Below, piece after piece: positions 33,073-55,185 of a stretch of 64,000 nt of DNA (the stretch's first letter is position 1; every line of letters begins with the position of its first letter). Source of the DNA: Patescibacteria group bacterium (GTDB lineage Bacteria > Patescibacteriota > Saccharimonadia > UBA4664 > SCTI01); assembly GCA_004297735.1 (NCBI GenBank), contig SCTI01000002.1, positions 160 through 64,159 of the forward strand. The letters run 5' to 3'. Below the pieces are notes generated by a model. It worked only from the letters and a program-made list of their open reading frames with translations, was not told where the DNA came from and searched no databases. Position numbers and translations under genes: made by a program.

Positions 33073-33256
33073 TGTCTATACCAGCGTTACCATCTTGAGT
33101 TAGTTTAACAGGTTTGAGGGGTTTGAGGCTAGGGGTGACTTAGGGCGGCTTCACCTCCATGTGCTGTTTTGTAAAATGGGCTGTTTAAAGATTTTTAAAC
33201 GAGAGCAGCCGCGCGCTACCTGAGAATATTCCTTTAAAAAGTAAATTTTGGCCCTC

Positions 33257-33297
33257 ACACCTGTTAAAAGATCCTTAAACAGGTGTTTTGCTATAAT
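33257..33297 (+). promoter_or_regulatory. extended -10 promoter overlapped by a 9-bp-arm palindromic operator
   Basis: ACACCTGTT-N12-AACAGGTGT (33257-33286) then TGcTATAAT (33289-33297). Confidence 0.5.
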
Positions 33298-33339
33298 TAG
33301 AGCTAAGAGCTCTTCACATCTGACCGAAAGAAGTCGCAC

Positions 33340-33510
33340 ATGGCCATTAAACACGACTGCACTTACGAGGAGTTCGAACCCCCCGAAATTCGTCGCGTCC
33401 GCGAGCGCCTCCAGGAGCAGCTGGCCAGACAAGGCATCGCCCTCCGAGGTCGACCTCCTGTCTGGGTTGTCGGCGCCAGCATCAAGCCTGTTTCAACCAG
33501 AACCAAGTAG
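33340..33510 (+). CDS. hypothetical 56-aa protein
   Basis: ATG 43 nt after the -10; MAIKHDCTYEEFEPPEIRRVRERLQEQLARQGIALRGRPPVWVVGASIKPVSTRTK; followed by a strong terminator; below the ORF-track size cutoff. Confidence 0.35.
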   Translation: MAIKHDCTYEEFEPPEIRRVRERLQEQLARQGIALRGRPPVWVVGASIKPVSTRTK

Positions 33511-33516
33511 CTCAAC

Positions 33517-33558
33517 GGGCCCGGGTGGAATGTTCCTACCCGGGCCGCAGTGTTTTTT
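33517..33558 (+). terminator. rho-independent terminator
   Basis: GGCCCGGG-N12-CCCGGGCC then TGTTTTTTA. Confidence 0.65.
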
Positions 33559-33575
33559 ATTGAGTAATAATTAGA

Positions 33576-39413: not shown

Positions 39414-39989
39414 CTATTGAGCCGGCCGCACCCACATTCGTTCAACCCAACCATTTCTGGGTTCTTCAAACGTATCATCGGTTGAATTAAATCCAAGCTT
39501 TTTGAGGATTTTTACGCTTGGAGCATTACTATCTTCACAAAATGCCACGAACTCTGTTATCTCCATACTAGTCTGAGCCATCTGCATTAAGGCTTGAATT
39601 GAAGCGGTAACGAGGCCCCTGCCCCTCATCGAAGGGTCGAGAAAATAACCAAAACCGATCACGGTTGGGTTGGGCGTTCCGGACATGTAGCCATTGTCCT
39701 GCCATAAGTTGACCCAACCCACCATATTATCTTGCTGCACAAGGGTGTAGCGAAGGATATCAGGCTTACTTTGGCCTCTCCTAATCTCATTGACCACATC
39801 TGCCTCGTTGAGCATTTTGGAGGCCACAGTGACACGGTCGCGTATGCTCGGATCAGCCTCGAGTATTTCAATAGTCCTTTTAGCATCAGATTCCTGTACT
39901 AACCTCAGGTAGACATCATCTTGCACTTGGACTTTTTGTAGTGCCGGAATTTGGTGTAAGTCTCTTGCAATATTTTTTGGCTTTGTCAT
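39414..39989 (-). CDS. GNAT family N-acetyltransferase
   Basis: 191 aa; acetyl-CoA-binding motif A (RGRGLVTASIQAL). Confidence 0.6.
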   Translation of the reverse strand: MTKPKNIARDLHQIPALQKVQVQDDVYLRLVQESDAKRTIEILEADPSIRDRVTVASKMLNEADVVNEIRRGQSKPDILRYTLVQQDNMVGWVNLWQDNGYMSGTPNPTVIGFGYFLDPSMRGRGLVTASIQALMQMAQTSMEITEFVAFCEDSNAPSVKILKKLGFNSTDDTFEEPRNGWVERMWVRPAQ

Positions 39990-40054
39990 ACCAAAACTAT
40001 ACTATAAATTTTTGAGATCAGAATTCGTTAATATTAGTTGTTTACGATAAATAG

Positions 40055-40153
40055 GCCTGGTGGATACGGTCTCACGACGAGGGGCCGAGCTGGTGCTATA
40101 CTTTGGCTTCGTCACCCGCTGTATTGGGGTTCGATTCCCCATAGCTCCACCAG
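40055..40153 (+). ncRNA. tRNA-like small RNA, copy A (core 40080..40151; lacks an anticodon arm; resembles the tRNA-like domain of tmRNA)
   Basis: core GGGGCCGAG...TGGGG-TTCGATT-CCCCA-TAGCTCC-A-CCA with canonical T-arm, G3:U70-type acceptor and encoded CCA; flanked by a 9-bp helix CCTGGTGGA/TCCACCAGG; terminator 16 nt downstream; the only candidate canonical D arm (GGTC/GACC) leaves too few nt for an anticodon arm. Confidence 0.4.
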
Positions 40154-40166
40154 GTTAATAAACAAA

Positions 40167-40193
40167 AATAGCCGCCCGGAGCGGCTATTTTTG
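40167..40193 (+). terminator. rho-independent terminator after the tRNA-like gene
   Basis: ATAGCCGC-ccgga-GCGGCTAT then TTTTTG. Confidence 0.6.
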
Positions 40194-40217
40194 TAGTCAG
40201 TGTTGTCGGGCCAGTGC

Positions 40218-40233
40218 CACAGCTCCACCAGAT
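40218..40233 (+). repeat. partial duplicate of the tRNA-like 3' end (CCACAGCTCCACCAGA)
   Basis: matches the 3' terminal sequence of copy A and copy B; possible relic att repeat. Confidence 0.35.
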
Positions 40234-40317
40234 ACATTCGATACCTTTGTATCGATTTGATTGTAGCGCATTCTACTCCTTGACGCCATCCCCTTTTTCA
40301 GGTAAGATGGTCGAGTT

Positions 40318-40713
40318 ATGAAAACCGATATTCATCCGACATTATTCGACACCAAGGTGCACTGCAACGGTTGTGATACCAACTTCACTACTCGCGCCAC
40401 GGTGCCAGAGATCACAGTTGAGATTTGTTCGAACTGTCATCCGTTCTACACCGGCAAGCAAAAGCTGGTGGATACCGCTGGTCGCGTTGAGAAGTTTGAG
40501 GCTCGCCGTAAGGCCGCCGAGGCCAAGAAGGCCGCTAGCTTAAAGGCAGCCGATGTTAAGGCTGAGCGTGAGGCCAAAAAGGCTCAAAAGAACGACCCTG
40601 AGCTTAAGGAAATTGCCGAGGAGCTCAAGGATCAGACCATTGATGAGCCAGCCGAGGTTGATGCTCCGGCTCCAGAAGCTGAGACCGAAAAGACCGATTC
40701 AACCGAATCTTAA
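40318..40713 (+). CDS. rpmE: 50S ribosomal protein L31 with C-terminal extension
   Basis: CxxC...CxxC Zn ribbon (CNGCD ... CSNCHPFY); promoter CTTGAC-18 nt-TAAGAT upstream. Confidence 0.85.
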
Positions 40714-52222: not shown

Positions 52223-52270
52223 TAAGTTCTATTATACGCGGTAAGCCGGGTCAACAAAATCTACCAAGAC

Positions 52271-52289
52271 CCTGGTGGAACTGTTGGGG
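52271..52289 (-). repeat. attR-like direct repeat: 3' end of the tRNA-like gene
   Basis: minus-strand CCCCAACAGTTCCACCAGG versus copy A CCCCATAGCTCCACCAGG and A2/B CCACAGCTCCACCAG. Confidence 0.5.
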
Positions 52290-52467
52290 CGCCTCTCTAA
52301 CCCAGATTCTGGCAGATAGCAGTTTTACACGCTATTTGCAGGGTGGGCATTTGACTATCGGATGGCGCTTTGCGCATGCTGAAGACCCACCGATCGGTGG
52401 GTCCCGAGGTCCACTGGCAAGGGGACGCGGGGCAACGTACTACAACCCCGCAAAGGAGGTGGAGTAC

Positions 52468-52653
52468 ATGGGAAAGCCAAAGTTCGACACCCAGTCGAAC
52501 AACTCGAATGCGTGGGTCGGTGTCCGCGAAGGTCAGGACAGATCATCCGGCAAGACGCATACCGAGATCATCGTGCATGACAAGAGCAACAACGATCACG
52601 CTCACGTCGGCATCGATAAGAGCGGCAATCAGATATATCGCCGTGATCGCTAA
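52468..52653 (+). CDS. hypothetical 61-aa protein (island cargo)
   Basis: RBS AAAGGAGGTG 7 nt before ATG; MGKPKFDTQSNNSNAWVGVREGQDRSSGKTHTEIIVHDKSNNDHAHVGIDKSGNQIYRRDR; high GC. Confidence 0.35.
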   Translation: MGKPKFDTQSNNSNAWVGVREGQDRSSGKTHTEIIVHDKSNNDHAHVGIDKSGNQIYRRDR

Positions 52654-52699
52654 ATAGCGACACCGAGGCCCTTCCGGCCTCGGGCCGGGAGGGCCTCAT

Positions 52700-53026
52700 C
52701 TATACGCGGCGCGTCAGGCCATCCTCGCGAGCTACTCCCTCACCGAACGCCGATGCAATCGCGCTGTAGCGCGCGAGGAGCACCAGAGCGTTCGCAATCT
52801 CGCCATGCTCAGCCGGTACGAGAAACTCTCGCATCCACGCTGAGTTCGGAGTCGCAGCCATTATGTCCGCGAGCACAGCAGCCTCTTCGGGATCTGCTGC
52901 CGCCCAACGATCACGAATCAGCTTCGAAGCTTGATCGATCGATCGGTCATCGAAGTCGTCCTCGTCGAAGCGACGGCGCATTTCATCGCGCAGCTCGACC
53001 AAGTCTTGTAATTCACTGTTACCCAT
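52700..53026 (-). CDS. hypothetical acidic 108-aa protein (island cargo)
   Basis: convergent with the 61-aa gene across a GC-rich bidirectional hairpin (52665-52700); divergent from the recombinase gene. Confidence 0.4.
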   Translation of the reverse strand: MGNSELQDLVELRDEMRRRFDEDDFDDRSIDQASKLIRDRWAAADPEEAAVLADIMAATPNSAWMREFLVPAEHGEIANALVLLARYSAIASAFGEGVAREDGLTRRV

Positions 53027-53268
53027 GGCTTTATTGTCGAACAGGCCAGCGACTCATGCAAGCACGAGCGTGTCCAATCGCCCGTCCGATCGCGTCAGAG
53101 TGCTCGCTCCTGAACTTCCCGCATTCAGGCGCTTTCCGCTCGATTAAGGCCTAGGACTATCTAGGGCCCTTTGCCCTCCCTTACTACAAACGCCTCCAGA
53201 TCTGGCAAAATACGTATTGGCTTAACTACTGATACGAGCTAAGATCCTTAACGAAAGGAGGTGCACAT

Positions 53269-55002
53269 ATGAGTGAAAGTGATAAAACTGTGACTCTCGC
53301 TCAAGCGCCCAAGAAGGCGCTGGTGTATCTCCGTGTGTCCTCGGCCCAGCAGGCCGAGACCGACTACGACGTTGAGGGCTTCTCGATCCCAGCTCAGCGC
53401 GAGGCCTGCAGGCGCCGTGCCGCGGAGCTAGAAGCTGAGGTCGAAGCAGACTTCGTCGATCGCGGCGAGTCGGCCAGAAGCGCTGACCGCCCAGCCCTGC
53501 AACGGATGCTGGCCAGGCTTGAAGCCGGCGGCATCGATTACGTCATCGTCCACAAGCTGGATCGACTGGCGCGTAACCGGGCCGACGACGTCGAGATCGC
53601 GATGCGGATCAAGGCAGGCGGTGCGGTGCTGGTCTCCGTCACCGAGAACATCGATGAGACGCCATCCGGGATGTTGGTTCACGGAATCATGTCCTCGATC
53701 GCCGAGTTCTATAGCCGCAACCTGGCCTCAGAGATCGTCAAAGGCTCCCGGCAGAAGGCCAAGAACGGCGGCACGCTGACCCGGGCGCCCATTGGGTACC
53801 TGAACGTGCGCGAGTTCGTAGATGGCCGCGAGATCCGCACTATCGGTATCGACGAGGAACGAGCGCCGTACGTGCAGCTGGCGTTCGAGCTCTACGCCAC
53901 CGGCAACTACTCGCTGTCGCAGCTCTCCACGCTGCTCGAACACCAGGGGCTGCGTTCCCGGGCTACTCGCCGGCGGCCGAGCGTCCCGGTCACGGCCAGC
54001 AAGCTTCAGGCGATTCTGCGCAACCCGTACTACAAGGGCATCGTCTCCTACCAAGGCGAGAGCTTCCCCGGTCGGCATCAGCCGCTCGTTGACGACGATC
54101 TGTTTGAGCGAGTCGGCCAAGTCCTCTCCGGCAAGAAGCTCAGTGGCGAGCGGGACCGCAAGCACCGTCACTACCTCAAGGGCTCGCTCTACTGCGGCGA
54201 GTGCGGCCGCCGTCTGACGTTCAGTCGCAACACCGGCAATGGTGGCTCCTACGACTACTTCGTCTGCAGTGGCAAGCAGCGCAAGACCTGCAGCCAGGGA
54301 TATCTGCGCACCGATCACATCGAGGCTGAGGTCGAGAAGCTCTACGCGACAGTCCAGCTGACGACCAAGCAGCGCGCAGAGATCCGCCGCCTGGTTGAGA
54401 CACACCTCGATGCCATGCGGGCGGTGACCGACGCCGAAGCCAACAAAGCCACGGCTGAGATCACAAAGCTGCTGCGCGAAGAACGCAAGCTGCTTGAGCT
54501 GTACTACGCAGACCTCGTGAGCCGCGAGGCCTACGCCGAAGAGACCAAGCGGATTGCCGACGGCAAGCGGGCCGCCCAGCGACGTATTGACGAAGCTTCA
54601 GGAACTACACAGGAGCTACTCGAGGCACTCAACCGTGCGCTGGAGATGACAACCAACGCGCACAAGACCTACCTGATGTCCGACTTCACCGGACGCCGCC
54701 TAATGAACCAAATGTTCTTCAAGCGGATCGAGGTCAAGGCCGACGAGATCGATGACGTCAAGCTCTCCGACCCCTACGCCCAGCTACTGGCCCAGGACCT
54801 GCTGGCAGAAGCCGAGGAAGCCGCCAGAGAGGCCGCCGCTACCGGCGTCTGGGAGGCCCCGGAACTTCAGGCCGAACCGGCCACAGGGCCCGGAAACCAA
54901 AGAACCCTCGGCCTTTCTTTGGCCGAGGGTTCCATTAGTACTGCTGTCATGGAGCTGTGGGGATTCGAACCCCAAGCACGAAGATTATCGGTCCTTTGCT
55001 AG
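53269..55002 (+). CDS. large serine recombinase (phage-integrase type)
   Basis: 577 aa; N-terminal resolvase domain with catalytic Ser (LVYLRVSSAQQ), recombinase domain, Zn-ribbon (CGECGRR...FVCSG) and coiled-coil; RBS AAAGGAGGTG; the 3' end of the ORF runs into tRNA-like copy B, so the true stop is uncertain. Confidence 0.85.
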   Translation: MSESDKTVTLAQAPKKALVYLRVSSAQQAETDYDVEGFSIPAQREACRRRAAELEAEVEADFVDRGESARSADRPALQRMLARLEAGGIDYVIVHKLDRLARNRADDVEIAMRIKAGGAVLVSVTENIDETPSGMLVHGIMSSIAEFYSRNLASEIVKGSRQKAKNGGTLTRAPIGYLNVREFVDGREIRTIGIDEERAPYVQLAFELYATGNYSLSQLSTLLEHQGLRSRATRRRPSVPVTASKLQAILRNPYYKGIVSYQGESFPGRHQPLVDDDLFERVGQVLSGKKLSGERDRKHRHYLKGSLYCGECGRRLTFSRNTGNGGSYDYFVCSGKQRKTCSQGYLRTDHIEAEVEKLYATVQLTTKQRAEIRRLVETHLDAMRAVTDAEANKATAEITKLLREERKLLELYYADLVSREAYAEETKRIADGKRAAQRRIDEASGTTQELLEALNRALEMTTNAHKTYLMSDFTGRRLMNQMFFKRIEVKADEIDDVKLSDPYAQLLAQDLLAEAEEAAREAAATGVWEAPELQAEPATGPGNQRTLGLSLAEGSISTAVMELWGFEPQARRLSVLC

Positions 55003-55016
55003 ACCAACTCAGCCCC
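54950..55016 (-). ncRNA. tRNA-like small RNA, copy B (integration target; 3' CCA end replaced by island DNA)
   Basis: GGGGCTGAGTTGGTCTAGCAAAGGACCGATAATCTTCGTGCT-TGGGGTTCGAATCCCCA-CAGCTCC-A; fully paired acceptor with G3:U70; aligns to copy A along its whole length. Confidence 0.4.
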
Positions 55017-55144
55017 GCGTAAAAGCCATTGCTACCACCAAGGCATTTACAGTATTTCAAACAGTTATTAACAAAAAATTATCGATTTGACATGGAATGC
55101 AAAAATGTTAATCTATATCTGTACGAGGATTATCGGTCCTACCT

Positions 55145-55173
55145 AAAAAACCGGCCATCATGGCCGGTTTTTT
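55145..55173. terminator. bidirectional rho-independent terminator (ileS 3' end)
   Basis: A6-CCGGCCAT-ca-TGGCCGG-T6. Confidence 0.7.
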
Positions 55174-55185
55174 AGTGCCTATTTT

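What the first reader, a model, noticed from the sequence alone, without database searches (positions are those of the whole stretch)
40055..40233. Non-canonical about 72-nt tRNA-like RNA gene (tmRNA-TLD-like, no anticodon arm) with its own terminator and a relic 3'-end repeat
Copy A has a perfect T-arm (TGGGG-TTCGATT-CCCCA), a 7-bp acceptor with a G3:U70 pair (Ala/tmRNA-type identity), a discriminator A and an encoded CCA. The only candidate canonical D arm (GGTC/GACC) leaves too few nt for an anticodon arm. The 5' part (GGGGCCGAGCTGG...) resembles the 5' end of tmRNA (GGGGCUGAUUCUGG...). It is flanked by a 9-bp helix pairing a 5' leader with the 3' end. A rho-independent terminator follows, and 66 nt downstream is a second partial copy of the 3' end (CCACAGCTCCACCAGA). 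A diverged full-length copy (B) at 54950-55016 is the target of the recombinase island. Together this points to a family of expressed tRNA-like small RNAs that also serve as integration sites. It could be a minimal alanine-accepting tRNA-like RNA or a degenerate ssrA derivative.
Basis: seen in the sequence. Interest (0 to 1): 0.75.

Follow-up and report, generated by a model that had tools for sequence, protein, structure and literature searches.

The report
Mini tmRNA-like gene with antisense partner
This is a real, roughly 70-base RNA gene that keeps only the tRNA-like part of the ribosome-rescue RNA tmRNA; its relatives in the same bacterial group each carry a matched antisense RNA, and the gene also serves as a landing site for mobile DNA.

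Summary
Window 40081-40152 (+) has a perfect T-arm, a G3:U70 acceptor stem (one C:A mismatch), A73 and an encoded CCA. It also has a 5' leader that pairs with the 3' end, a terminator, and a displaced copy of the 3' end at 40217-40231. Copy B lies at 54950-55016 (-). ARAGORN and Rfam's gathering thresholds find nothing. In evalue mode the Rfam tmRNA model aligns end-to-end to both copies with its middle deleted (A 29.7 bits, B 32.6 bits, E about 1e-8 to 1e-9). It does the same for seven related sequences (34.6-46.7 bits; cutoff 47).

These are tmRNA genes without a tag reading frame ("TLD-only"), a rare form known from phage DS6A and some organelles. Here they sit on a Saccharimonadia (Patescibacteria) chromosome. 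Three helices and the leader-trailer helix are supported by covariation. A 2.66-kb serine-recombinase island is inserted in B's 3' end, and B's displaced original 3' end is at 52271-52289.

New finding: the central hairpin is copied about 110-125 nt upstream in 6 of 7 chromosomal loci. The copy changes together with the gene. In the B-type loci a conserved divergent promoter reads it antisense into a terminator. This predicts a cognate antisense RNA. Expression, alanylation and SmpB binding were not tested.

The parts
39971..39988 (+). H1(A): upstream direct copy (15/18) of A's central loop. Its antisense strand is the start codon and first codons of the GNAT mRNA.
   Evidence: It is the only match of 14/18 or better in the whole 64-kb window. 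None of 2000 random 140-nt segments reached 15/18 apart from three hits to the locus itself. Spacing is 126 nt, against 137-145 nt in four B-type loci.
40027..40053 (+). Predicted promoter of A (GTTAAT, about 15 nt, TAAATA).
   Evidence: Read from the sequence. The same GTTAAT...TAAAT blocks sit before the leader in all B-type loci (alignment A3). This is an inference; the scan tool instead flags TTGTCA-16-TAAATT at 39983-40010.
40056..40064 (+). 5' leader strand CCTGGTGGA, which pairs with 40146-40154.
   Evidence: The leader-trailer helix covaries across 6 loci.
40081..40152 (+). Copy A, a TLD-only tmRNA-like gene in register i (GGGGCCG...ACCA). The alternative 5' end is at 40092 (GGUGCUA, U3/U70).
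   Evidence: 64.2 bits with model R1; tmRNA RF00023, 29.7 bits, E 1.9e-8, 40092-40152.
40125..40141 (+). T-arm TGGGG-TTCGATT-CCCCA.
40146..40154 (+). 3' strand of the leader helix (TCCACCAGG). It covers U70-A76 plus 2 trailer nt and so sequesters the ACCA end.
40162..40198 (+). Intrinsic terminator of A (14-bp stem, 5-nt loop, T run).
   Evidence: I1. It is conserved in L129.
40217..40231 (+). Relic: displaced copy of the gene's 3' end (CCACAGCTCCACCAG).
   Evidence: D2. In L129 the relic carries the same C-to-T change as that gene's own 3' end.
40238..40255 (+). Hairpin after the relic, possibly the original weak terminator of the gene.
   Evidence: It is conserved in L129.
54950..55016 (-). 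Copy B, a TLD-only tmRNA-like gene with a perfect G3:U70 acceptor stem and no encoded CCA.
   Evidence: 57.6 bits; tRNA model 27.3 bits; tmRNA model 32.6 bits, E 1.1e-9.
54978..54995 (-). H2(B): central hairpin of B (AGGA-CCGATAA-TCTT region).
55123..55140 (-). H1(B): upstream direct copy (17/18) of H2(B). Read on the + strand it is complementary to B's central hairpin.
   Evidence: (duplex -41 kcal/mol; 0/300 shuffles as low).
55087..55180 (+). Predicted antisense RNA unit: promoter TTGACA-16-TAATCT (55087-55114), the anti-H1 segment, and the bidirectional terminator at 55143-55175.
   Evidence: Terminator. The promoter is weak here and fails the scan tool's criteria. The scan tool flags it in L105, L134 and L136. 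GTCAA is invariant in alignment A3. Predicted fold.
54901..54933 (-). Terminator following B, supplied by the inserted island.
52290..54949 (.). Island of 2.66 kb inserted in B's 3' end. It carries a 577-aa large serine recombinase (53269-55002, +) whose last 18 codons run antisense through B.
   Evidence: higher G+C; Resolvase, Recombinase and Zn_ribbon_recom domains.
52271..52289 (-). Displaced original 3' end of B (CCCCAACAGTTCCACCAGG), next to the rodA promoter.
   Evidence: It is colinear with the 3' end plus trailer of the L134, L136 and L152 orthologs.

Best explanation
Copy A, and its paralog B, is a small RNA gene descended from the tRNA-like domain (TLD) of tmRNA. It keeps a G3:U70 acceptor stem, a D-loop without a D-stem, one helix that abuts the T-arm, a canonical T-arm and an ACCA end. 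It has no resume codon, no tag reading frame and no pseudoknots. This is the 'standard form, no CDS' (TLD-only) class of tmRNA.

The gene belongs to a non-coding cassette of roughly 270-300 nt, estimated by comparing filled and empty ileS-rodA sites. The cassette has two back-to-back promoters. One drives leader, TLD and trailer. The 5' end of the leader pairs with ACCA plus the trailer, so the primary transcript is closed and must be opened and trimmed before the 3' end is free. The other promoter reads the opposite way through a copy of the TLD's central hairpin and into a terminator. It would give an RNA of about 55-60 nt whose 5' part is complementary to that hairpin over 18-34 nt.

Shown here: the sequence features, the covariation of the helices, the co-variation of the two hairpin copies, the conserved divergent promoter and terminator, and the island junctions.

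Inferred: the matured RNA is recognised as a tmRNA TLD (by RNase P, AlaRS through G3:U70, and SmpB). Having no message to offer, it competes with or modulates canonical trans-translation, as the DS6A TLD-only RNA does in E. coli. The antisense RNA pairs with the hairpin loop (a YUNR-type loop), zips up and neutralises or destabilises the TLD RNA, so each cassette is self-regulating and specific to its own partner.

Because the 3' half mimics ssrA, integrases use it as an attB. This explains the recombinase island in B and the 3'-end relics at both copies. In A the cassette is partly decayed: the acceptor has a mismatch, the 5' strand is duplicated, and the antisense half has been taken over by the start of a GNAT gene.

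The confidence of 0.5 is for the whole statement. I put identity as a real TLD-only tmRNA-like gene and integration site at about 0.8, the antisense partner at about 0.5-0.55, and the SmpB/trans-translation mechanism at about 0.35-0.4.
For: Identity
- The tmRNA model RF00023 aligns over model positions 1-374, with the middle deleted, to A (29.7 bits, E 1.9e-8) and B (32.6 bits, E 1.1e-9).
- It does the same for L129, L134, L152, L105, L136, L083 and L116 (34.6-46.7 bits, E 2e-10 to 1.7e-15).
- The known DS6A TLD-only gene (JN698994 28478-28560) is hit by the family model R1 at 38.7 bits.

Structure
- In the hand-registered alignment A2, 97.3% of cells are paired. Six of the 7 pairs of the helix next to the T-arm have changes on both sides. 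0/500 shuffles reach the observed score, and slid controls give about 50%.
- The leader-trailer helix is 83% paired, with 5 pairs changed on both sides and 0/500 shuffles reaching the score.
- G3:U70 is kept in L129, L134, L136 and L152. These were found by synteny, not by a pattern that forces it.

Antisense partner
- An upstream direct copy of the central hairpin sits at -110 to -124 in A, B, L134, L136, L152 and L105. It is absent from L129 and from about 19 phage or other TLD-like genes; L121 may be an exception.
- The 7-nt loops are identical within each of 5 B-type genomes (0/35 differences) but differ by 1-4 nt between genomes.
- Mismatches between the two copies are 10 wobble-compatible against 2 incompatible transitions (binomial p = 0.019).
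- Predicted duplexes are -38.7 to -46.9 kcal/mol, against -20 +/- 3 for shuffles (0/300 as low).
- The divergent promoter is flagged by the scan tool in L105 (11/12 matches), L134 (10/12) and L136 (10/12). GTCAA is invariant in alignment A3.
- Bidirectional terminators are present, and the predicted antisense RNAs fold as a 5' hairpin plus terminator.

Integration site

Functional precedent
- The DS6A TLD-only RNA inhibits endogenous tmRNA in E. coli (Mao et al. 2009, as cited in PMC4131195 and PMC11915505).
Against: - There are no expression data, and no test of alanylation, SmpB binding or RNA-RNA pairing.
- Every tmRNA-model score is below the gathering cutoff of 47. B scores nearly as well as a tRNA (27.3 against a cutoff of 29).
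- The alignment behind the central-helix covariation was registered by hand. RNAalifold on a plain MAFFT alignment recovers only the acceptor stem and T-arm.
- A itself is the weakest family member. It has a C6/A67 mismatch. The alternative register preferred by the model has U3/U70 and so no alanine identity element. Its upstream copy matches only 15/18, and 2 of its 3 mismatches are transitions of the wobble-incompatible kind.
- A's closest homolog, L129, has no detectable upstream copy.
- The antisense promoter of window copy B is weak and fails the scan tool's criteria.
- B has lost its CCA and trailer to the island.
- The conserved leader-trailer helix could mean that the functional RNA keeps a closed end and is never aminoacylated.
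- Whether the genome has a canonical ssrA and smpB could not be checked.
Confidence: 0.5

Rival explanations
1. The two hairpin copies (H1 and H2) are DNA sites, not RNA partners. They would be core-type sites of a tyrosine recombinase, with stem arms and a 7-bp overlap that must be identical, or they would be kept identical by gene conversion. The tRNA-like gene is then mainly an attachment site.
For: Identity is strictest in the 7-nt loop flanked by inverted-repeat arms, which is the layout of anticodon-loop att cores. A Xer-like tyrosine recombinase gene lies next to the L105 cassette. Both A and B carry integration scars at their 3' ends. L121 has an upstream copy with no obvious antisense promoter.
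Against: Recombination between direct repeats 140 bp apart would only delete the promoters and the 5' half of the gene. The one deletion variant seen (L137) is not an H1 x H2 product. No recombinase lies near the Saccharimonadia B-type loci other than the serine recombinase, which acts at the 3' end. The wobble-biased mismatches and the conserved promoter plus terminator reading antisense through H1 are not predicted by a DNA-only role.
Confidence: 0.15
2. A and B are decaying fragments of tmRNA or tRNA genes left behind by island integration and deletion. They are pseudogenes with no RNA function.
For: Fragments of tmRNA genes made by island integration are common (PMC4131195). 3'-end relics are present at both copies. 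The cassettes are present or absent among close relatives. A has an acceptor mismatch and a duplicated 5' strand. B has no CCA.
Against: Compensatory changes maintain the acceptor stem, the central helix, the T-stem and the leader-trailer helix across genomes with 83-89% IleRS identity and beyond. Each gene has its own conserved promoter blocks and a terminator. The B orthologs keep a perfect 7-bp G3:U70 stem and an encoded ACCA. This rival remains plausible for copy A alone.
Confidence: 0.12
3. The functional molecule is the closed, unprocessed RNA of about 100 nt (leader paired to ACCA plus trailer). It would be a structured tRNA-mimic regulatory or scaffold RNA, in the manner of bacterial YrlA/Y RNAs, that is never aminoacylated and does not act through SmpB.
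For: The leader-trailer helix shows the strongest covariation and buries the ACCA end. The minimum-free-energy fold of the A precursor keeps that helix rather than the acceptor stem. In A-type genes the leader also pairs with the first GGGGCYG unit, with one compensatory change between A and L129 (read).
Against: No Rfam match to YrlA/YrlB or other Y RNA families, even at E up to 10. G3:U70, A73 and an encoded CCA are conserved, which would be needless for a closed RNA. Pairing between leader and trailer is also compatible with being a processing intermediate.
Confidence: 0.13
4. B-type RNAs are real decoding tRNAs of unusual shape (no D-stem), charged with alanine but carrying Val or Ile anticodons.
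For: B scores 27.3 bits with the tRNA model, including an anticodon arm. The 7-nt loops read CUAACAC, CUAACAA, CUGACAC, UUCACAA and CCGAUAA, i.e. a Y-U-N-A-C-A-M pattern with NAC (Val) anticodons in 4 of 5. The hairpin length places the loop roughly where an anticodon would be.
Against: Orthologous loci differ in 'anticodon', which a decoder would not tolerate. U33 is lost in the window copy. L136 has a 12-nt loop. The loop is mirrored by the upstream copy, which decoding does not explain. ARAGORN calls nothing. A G3:U70 tRNA reading Val or Ile codons would mistranslate.
Confidence: 0.04

Closest known systems
CDS-less ('TLD only') tmRNA of mycobacteriophage DS6A (tmRNA database entry Phage__Mycobacterium.9)
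   Same: An RNA of about 70-83 nt made of the tmRNA 5' and 3' termini joined by a short hairpin. It has a G3:U70 acceptor stem, no D-stem, a canonical T-arm and no tag reading frame. It is hit by the same family model (38.7 bits). Related phage genes sit in tRNA arrays or near transposases.
   Different: DS6A and the other phage members keep the tmRNA GG(U)UCGAC D-loop and a 4-nt GCAC/GGAC linker before the T-arm, and have a longer P2 with an inner hairpin. In A and B the helix abuts the T-arm. A and B are chromosomal (Saccharimonadia), occur twice in 64 kb, have a covarying leader-trailer helix and, in 6 of 7 loci, an upstream antisense copy of the loop. That copy is absent from all but possibly one (L121) of the 20 phage or other members tested; DS6A itself was not tested.
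Canonical tmRNA (ssrA, Rfam RF00023)
   Same: The TLD: acceptor stem with G3:U70, a GGnYUnG(A)C-type D-loop, the T-arm, the CAGCUCCACCA 3' end, and use as an island integration site. The model matches end-to-end.
   Different: No mRNA-like domain, resume codon, tag ORF or pseudoknots. Length is about 70 nt against about 360 nt. Scores are below the gathering cutoff.
CDS-less organellar tmRNAs (jakobid mitochondria; Mallomonadaceae plastids, about 65 bp)
   Same: tmRNA reduced to little more than the TLD (PMC11915505).
   Different: The organellar forms are the sole tmRNA of a reduced genome. Here there are two diverged paralogs in sporadically distributed cassettes. No match to the mitochondrial model was seen.
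Trans-encoded antisense cassettes of type I toxin-antitoxin loci (tisB/istR-1, shoB/ohsC, zorO/orzO)
   Same: Small intergenic cassettes, multi-copy and patchily distributed. Two divergently transcribed small genes share about 18-20 nt of complementarity through a short direct repeat.
   Different: No toxin peptide ORF is conserved in the cassette, so the regulated partner is itself a non-coding tRNA-like RNA. The comparison rests on my own knowledge of those loci. The Rfam OrzO/AgrB matches are terminator-only noise.
tRNA-Ala / canonical tRNA (RF00005)
   Same: Acceptor stem and T-arm minihelix with G3:U70 and A73. B aligns to the tRNA model, including an anticodon-arm-like hairpin (27.3 bits).
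   Different: The 5' strand of the D-stem (nt 8-13) is absent. B is below the gathering score and ARAGORN calls nothing. The loop sequence is not conserved between orthologs.
mascRNA (RF01684) and bacterial YrlA Y RNAs
   Same: Small tRNA-mimic RNAs with acceptor- and T-arm-like helices. mascRNA is the top sub-threshold Rfam hit in small-region searches (22.7-32.7 bits).
   Different: mascRNA is a vertebrate MALAT1 product, so the resemblance is only in shape. There is no YrlA hit and no adjacent Ro/Rsr gene.

Membership tests
tmRNA (ssrA) | tRNA-like domain: 7-bp acceptor stem with G3:U70, D-loop without a D-stem, T-arm, and A73-CCA. | tested here: met
   B and the orthologs L134, L136 and L152 have perfect stems. 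A has one C/A mismatch and an alternative register.
tmRNA (ssrA) | Rfam RF00023 score at or above the gathering cutoff (47 bits). | tested here: not met
   A 29.7, B 32.6 and related sequences 34.6-46.7 bits. All are end-to-end alignments with E from 2e-8 to 2e-15.
tmRNA (ssrA) | mRNA-like domain with a resume codon and tag reading frame, plus pseudoknots. | tested here: not met
   Only about 35 nt lie between the acceptor stem and the T-arm. ARAGORN finds no tmRNA or tag peptide, and the model's middle section is deleted in the alignment.
tmRNA (ssrA) | Alanylation by AlaRS and binding of SmpB. | not testable with these tools
   Needs biochemistry. smpB was not seen among the window ORFs checked.
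CDS-less / TLD-only tmRNA (DS6A type) | tmRNA 5' and 3' termini joined by a short hairpin, total about 65-85 nt, with no tag CDS. | tested here: met
   The DS6A gene was recovered with the family model.
CDS-less / TLD-only tmRNA (DS6A type) | tmRNA-type D-loop GGnUUCGAC and a GGAC/GCAC linker before the T-arm. | tested here: inconclusive
   The phage members have it. B has GGUCUAGC and L136 has GGCUUGGC. A has UGGCUUCGUC only in register ii. No linker is present, and the helix abuts the T-arm.
CDS-less / TLD-only tmRNA (DS6A type) | Inhibits or competes with canonical tmRNA. | not testable with these tools
   Known only for the DS6A form in E. coli (Mao et al. 2009, via PMC4131195 and PMC11915505).
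Canonical tRNA | Cloverleaf with a D-arm, detected by ARAGORN or by Rfam RF00005 at 29 bits or more. | tested here: not met
   ARAGORN finds 0 genes. B scores 27.3 bits with the D-stem deleted. For A no tRNA row is shown; any tRNA match scored below the 12.2-bit tmRNA hit kept for the clan.
Trans-antisense small-RNA cassette (type I TA-like architecture) | Two divergent promoters and about 18-20 nt or more of trans complementarity between the two transcripts. | tested here: met
   This is met for B-type loci but degenerate at A.
Trans-antisense small-RNA cassette (type I TA-like architecture) | A small toxic peptide ORF in one transcript. | tested here: not met
   No conserved ORF is found in the cassettes.
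Y RNA / YrlA | A match to the Rfam YrlA/YrlB models, a Ro-binding stem, and a neighbouring rsr gene. | tested here: not met
   No hit at E up to 10. The neighbouring genes are a GNAT gene, rpmE, ileS and the serine recombinase.

The most novel reading that the evidence does not exclude
The cassette is an RNA-only, toxin-antitoxin-like selfish module. A TLD-only tmRNA mimic jams or titrates the SmpB/trans-translation machinery. Its cognate antisense RNA holds it in check through a kissing interaction whose loop sequence diversifies, so that paralogous cassettes (A against B) stay orthogonal. The roughly 300-nt cassette spreads sporadically between intergenic sites in Saccharimonadia and, by mimicking the ssrA 3' end, creates new landing pads for integrating islands.
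Probability: 0.2. Interest if true: 0.85.

Novelty: new variant of a known kind. Interest (0 to 1): 0.66.

Why it matters
tmRNAs without a tag reading frame are extremely rare in curated data: 9 'standard, no CDS' sequences among 97,179 (PMC11915505). They are known from one phage and from organelles. This case would matter for four reasons.

- It shows the form on bacterial chromosomes of the ultra-small Patescibacteria, in two diverged copies. The pattern scans also recovered about 15-20 distinct TLD-only genes on phage-like and metagenome contigs that standard tools (ARAGORN, Rfam gathering thresholds) miss.
- A dedicated, co-evolving antisense RNA aimed at a tRNA-like RNA has, to my knowledge, not been described. 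It would give a testable handle on how cells or mobile elements tune ribosome rescue.
- It identifies a new class of attB sites for genomic islands in genomes where island mapping relies on tRNA and tmRNA annotation.
- If these genomes turn out to lack a canonical ssrA, the finding would bear on how minimal a rescue RNA can be.

Tried and rejected
- Standard detectors. ARAGORN on the window and on 40+ loci, and Rfam at gathering thresholds, call nothing at A or B.
- Small-region Rfam searches misled. They gave mascRNA and truncated tmRNA hits. The full-length tmRNA alignment appeared only when more sequence was searched.
- Synteny in GTDB species representatives. None of 80 rpmE loci carries the T-arm motif, so the gene is not broadly syntenic.
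- False positives in the metagenome pattern hits. A 55-56-nt class turned out to be the 3' parts of ordinary phage tRNA-Ala genes, and several 84-85-nt hits are ordinary tRNAs preceded by a chance GGGG.
- Permuted (two-piece) tmRNA. Rejected because the 5' strand precedes the T-arm, and no coding piece follows before rpmE.
- The antisense RNA as a detached coding piece of a two-piece tmRNA. Only 2-11 nt lie between the paired segment and the terminator, no frame is conserved, and the UAA belongs to the terminator palindrome.
- T-box-like sensing of the NCCA end. No UGGU element is present in the antisense RNA (read).
- IS110-type bridge RNA. No DEDD recombinase is nearby.
- An 8-bp hairpin using the D-loop (GUUGGUCU/GGACCGAU). 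RNAfold favours it in B and L105, but it is not supported in the other members.
- The T-arm-like motif at 33369. It lies inside a small ORF and is not an RNA gene.
- Canonical tmRNA in the loci held. None was found apart from one dubious permuted call in L093.
- RNAalifold on the plain MAFFT alignment. It did not recover the central helix, partly because I gave wrong coordinates for L152.
Full report
THE OBSERVATION

The T-arm TGGGG-TTCGATT-CCCCA is at 40125-40141. The acceptor strands are GGGGCCG (40081-40087) and TAGCTCC (40142-40148), followed by A73 and CCA (40149-40152). The leader CCTGGTGGA (40056-40064) pairs with TCCACCAGG (40146-40154). A 14-bp terminator stem spans 40162-40194. A second copy of the 3' end, CCACAGCTCCACCAG, lies at 40217-40231.

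The acceptor stem is not a clean 7 bp: C6/A67 is a mismatch and G7:U66 is a wobble pair. The 15-mer T-arm core occurs perfectly only at A and, on the minus strand, at copy B (54959-54973). Chance would give 0.28 matches at up to 2 mismatches. B (54950-55016, minus strand) has a perfect 7-bp stem with G3:U70, but its 3' end reads A-TGA instead of A-CCA.

WHAT THE STANDARD TOOLS SAY

ARAGORN finds no tRNA or tmRNA in the 64 kb. Rfam at gathering thresholds finds nothing. Small-region Rfam searches gave only sub-threshold matches: mascRNA, permuted tmRNA and, for B, tRNA at 27.3 bits against a cutoff of 29.

When more sequence was searched, the tmRNA model RF00023 aligned over its full length (positions 1-374) with its middle deleted. 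B scored 32.6 bits (E 1.1e-9) and A scored 29.7 bits (E 1.9e-8). The same happened for all seven related sequences tested: L129 34.6, L134 and L152 38.4, L105 40.2, L136 41.5, L083 45.8 and L116 46.7 bits. The gathering cutoff is 47.

These RNAs therefore carry the 5' and 3' termini of tmRNA, its tRNA-like domain, and nothing else. For A the model starts at 40092 (GGUGCUA). A and its ortholog carry an 11-nt tandem duplication of the 5' strand (GGGGCCGAGCU then GGUGCUAUACU), so two acceptor registers compete. Register ii has two compensatory changes between A and L129, but it has U3/U70 and so lacks the alanine identity pair. Predicted energies do not decide between the two registers.

ORGANISM AND DISTRIBUTION

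The neighbouring genes are rseP, uppS, frr, tsf and rpsB, then a GNAT gene, then A, then rpmE, prfA and prmC. The closest rpmE loci are Saccharimonadia (Patescibacteria) MAGs. The identical L31 protein is NCBI TAK88835.1, on a 494,657-bp contig.

A is not broadly syntenic. None of 80 rpmE loci from species representatives carries the T-arm motif. Among closer relatives, only L129 (L31 83% identical) has an A ortholog, complete with leader, terminator and relic. L128 (90%), L130 and L131 lack it. The rpsB-rpmE interval holds different cargo in each genome.

B orthologs sit between ileS and rodA in L134 (the same genome as L129), L136 and L152/L153. The gene is deleted in L137, which keeps the promoters and the start of the leader. 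It is absent in L138, L155 and L156/L157. Comparing filled and empty sites shows that the insert is a non-coding cassette of roughly 270-300 nt that brings its own bidirectional terminator. A more distant cassette (L105) sits next to a Xer-like recombinase gene in another context.

A WIDER FAMILY

A degenerate pattern recovered 41 metagenome and 5 viral loci. A second viral scan recovered 12 more. After removing ordinary tRNAs, the remainder are 64-85-nt genes with a G3:U70 stem. Many have the tmRNA D-loop GGUUUCGAC, a short P2 helix capped by a hairpin, and GGAC before the T-arm. Several sit in phage tRNA arrays or beside transposases.

This is the 'TLD only' form reported for mycobacteriophage DS6A (PMC4131195). 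I located that gene, unannotated, at JN698994 28478-28560. The 2025 tmRNA database lists only 9 'standard, no CDS' sequences among 97,179. It notes that the DS6A form inhibits E. coli tmRNA (PMC11915505).

STRUCTURE

I built an alignment of 11 members registered by hand (A2). The proposed structure is a 7-bp acceptor stem, a 9-10-nt D-loop with no D-stem, a 4-7-bp helix that abuts the T-arm, and a 5-bp T-stem. In this alignment 97.3% of cells are paired. Six of the 7 pairs of the central helix show changes on both sides. No shuffle in 500 reaches the observed covariation, and sliding the partners drops pairing to about 50%.

Two caveats apply. The register of the central helix was chosen per sequence, and RNAalifold on a plain MAFFT alignment recovers only the acceptor stem and T-arm. 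G3:U70 was forced by the search pattern in the metagenome hits, but it is also kept in the synteny-derived L129, L134, L136 and L152.

The helix between the 5' end of the leader and ACCA plus trailer covaries strongly. Examples are CC/GG, CCU/AGG, GCAA/UUGC and GCACU/AGUGC. It is 83% paired, with 5 pairs changed on both sides and 0/500 shuffles reaching the score. The primary transcript is therefore a closed structure with its CCA end buried.

INTEGRATION SITE

Downstream of B lies a 577-aa ORF with Resolvase, Recombinase and Zn_ribbon_recom domains, i.e. a large serine recombinase. At the far side of this higher-G+C segment, next to the rodA promoter, is CCCCAACAGTTCCACCAGG (52271-52289, minus strand). 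It is colinear with the 3' end and trailer of the orthologs.

The island is therefore 52290-54949, inserted in B's acceptor 3' strand. It supplies a new 3' end (without CCA) and a terminator. The last 18 codons of the recombinase ORF run antisense through B.

A shows the same kind of scar in miniature. The intact gene is followed by about 64 nt carrying the strong terminator. After that come the displaced 3' end and a weaker hairpin (40238-40255) that may be the original terminator. In L129 the relic carries the same C-to-T difference as that gene's own 3' end.

THE UNEXPECTED PART: A MATCHED UPSTREAM COPY OF THE CENTRAL HAIRPIN

In B an 18-mer from the central hairpin (54978-54995) recurs at 55123-55140 with one mismatch. 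The same holds in every B-type locus. The sequence differs between genomes but always matches within a genome:

- window: AGGACCGATAATCYTCGT
- L134: GACTAACACTCTTCGTGT (18/18)
- L152: GACTAACAATCTTCG (15/15)
- L136: GCTAWATTCACAACCYTAGC
- L105: GGACTGACACTTCCTAGAT (19/19)

The copy always lies 113-124 nt upstream of G1.

A has one too. 39971-39988 matches 40097-40114 at 15/18. This is the only match of 14/18 or better in the whole window. None of 2000 random 140-nt segments reached 15/18 apart from three hits to the locus itself.

L129 has no such copy. Of the 20 phage or other members tested, all but L121 also lack one. L121 has a 16/17 copy at -110 (my reading).

The 7-nt loops are identical within each of five genomes (0/35 differences), while they differ by 1-4 positions between genomes. 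Two copies evolving independently would not behave this way.

Between the two copies lie two back-to-back promoters. The one facing away from the gene is flagged by the scan tool in L105 (TTGACA-17-TATGAT), L134 (TTGACC-16-TATTAT) and L136 (TTGACC-18-TAAAAT). In L152 I read it as TTGACG-16-TACTAT. It is weaker in the window (TTGACA-16-TAATCT). GTCAA is invariant in the alignment of all six cassettes, including the deleted L137.

Transcription from this promoter runs antisense through the upstream copy and into a bidirectional terminator. The predicted RNA is about 55-60 nt: a 5' hairpin plus the terminator. Its 5' part is complementary to the TLD's hairpin and part of its D-loop. Predicted duplexes are -38.7 to -46.9 kcal/mol, against about -20 for shuffles (0/300 as low).

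Where the two copies differ, 10 transitions keep a G:U wobble in the predicted RNA duplex and 2 do not (p = 0.019). This favours selection on RNA pairing over a DNA-only role. In four of five B-type loci the loop on the TLD side has the Y-U-N-R form of an anticodon-type U-turn. By general knowledge, that is the loop type antisense RNAs use for fast kissing.

In A the antisense half is taken over by the GNAT gene. By my reading of the sequence, the loop pairs at 12 of 13 positions with UGACAAAGCCAAA across the start codon, but the three mismatches are not wobble-compatible. No small ORF is conserved in the cassettes.

INTERPRETATION

I am confident (about 0.8) that A and B are genuine members of the TLD-only tmRNA class, and that B, and formerly A, served as an island attachment site.

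The mechanism I think most likely (about 0.35-0.4) runs as follows. The processed RNA is treated as a tmRNA TLD by RNase P, AlaRS and SmpB, and competes with or modulates trans-translation, as the DS6A RNA does. A cognate antisense RNA controls it. These steps are inferred from homology and architecture; none was tested.

The alternatives I kept are:
- the two hairpin copies are recombinase core sites or are homogenised by gene conversion;
- the genes, especially A, are decaying fragments;
- the closed 100-nt RNA is the functional form and is never charged;
- B-type RNAs are odd decoding tRNAs, which is the least likely.

Whether the genome also has a canonical ssrA and smpB could not be checked with the scans available. 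That is the single most informative missing fact.

NOVELTY

The kind (tmRNA without a tag reading frame) is known but very rare. The following are new as far as the library and my knowledge go: the chromosomal, two-copy occurrence in Patescibacteria; the covarying leader-trailer helix; the role as a recombinase attB; and above all the co-varying antisense partner. I rate it a new variant of a known kind, with interest 0.66.

Noticed in passing
window 52290-55002: The 577-aa large serine recombinase ORF (53269-55002) runs past the island boundary (54949) and through copy B on the opposite strand. Its last 18 codons are therefore encoded antisense to the tRNA-like gene, and its C-terminus would differ in the excised form.
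   Followed up: partly
L140-L151, L084, L103, L099, L109, L120 (IMG/VR and metagenome contigs); JN698994 28478-28560: About 15-20 distinct TLD-only mini-tmRNA genes of 73-85 nt (GGUUUCGAC ... GGAC type) lie on phage-like contigs, several inside tRNA arrays. ARAGORN missed every one that was scanned. The DS6A gene itself is unannotated in its GenBank record, and Streptomyces phage BRock has an unannotated relative at 97150-97204.
   Followed up: partly
window 39414-40317 and 52223-55185; L128-L131, L134-L139: The rpsB-rpmE and ileS-rodA intervals are variable hot spots in this Saccharimonadia clade. Each genome holds different cargo: a GNAT gene, a 359-aa protein, a HAD hydrolase, a 938-aa protein, or pilin-like genes in the first interval; and the serine-recombinase island, TatA plus an 806-aa protein, or nothing in the second.
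   Followed up: partly
L137 5546-5742: A deletion variant of the B cassette. It keeps the terminator, an upstream hairpin (TTGATAC-TCCCTGC-GTATCAA), both promoters and the leader start CATTGGTGG. The tRNA-like gene itself is gone, apparently through recombination between the leader motif and a similar TGGTKG motif that follows the gene in the other loci.
   Followed up: partly
L121 1087-1947, L086 (downstream of 3961), L125 7447-8382, L116 1929-2873: TLD-like genes of other lineages are followed or flanked by what look from their sequences like IS1-type or ISXO2/IS1595-type transposase genes (not checked against Pfam). L121 and probably L086 also carry an upstream partial copy of the gene's D-loop and hairpin at about -110.
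   Followed up: no
window 40081-40102; L129 2264-2285: A-type genes have an 11-nt tandem duplication of the 5' acceptor strand (GGGGCCGAGCU|GGUGCUAUACU). The first unit can also pair with the leader (CGGUCUC/GGGGCCG in A, CAGUCCU/GGGGCUG in L129; one compensatory change). This gives three mutually exclusive pairings for the 5' region.
   Followed up: partly
window 40465-40475 (inside rpmE): An 11-mer identical to the leader (CTGGTGGATAC) lies in the rpmE coding region, in the conserved KLVDT motif. It is therefore complementary to the tRNA-like RNA's 3' end. By my own rough estimate, one such 11-mer match in 1.5 kb is about what chance would give.
   Followed up: no
window 33369-33383: A third T-arm-like motif (GGAGTTCGAACCCCC) lies inside a small ORF of about 57 codons in the 33073-33575 intergenic region. 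It is not part of a tRNA-like gene.
   Followed up: yes
window 40318-40713: Ribosomal protein L31 here is 131 aa, with a long Lys/Glu/Ala-rich C-terminal extension beyond its conserved ~70-residue N-terminal core. Relatives in the clade have similar extensions of 105-166 aa.
   Followed up: no
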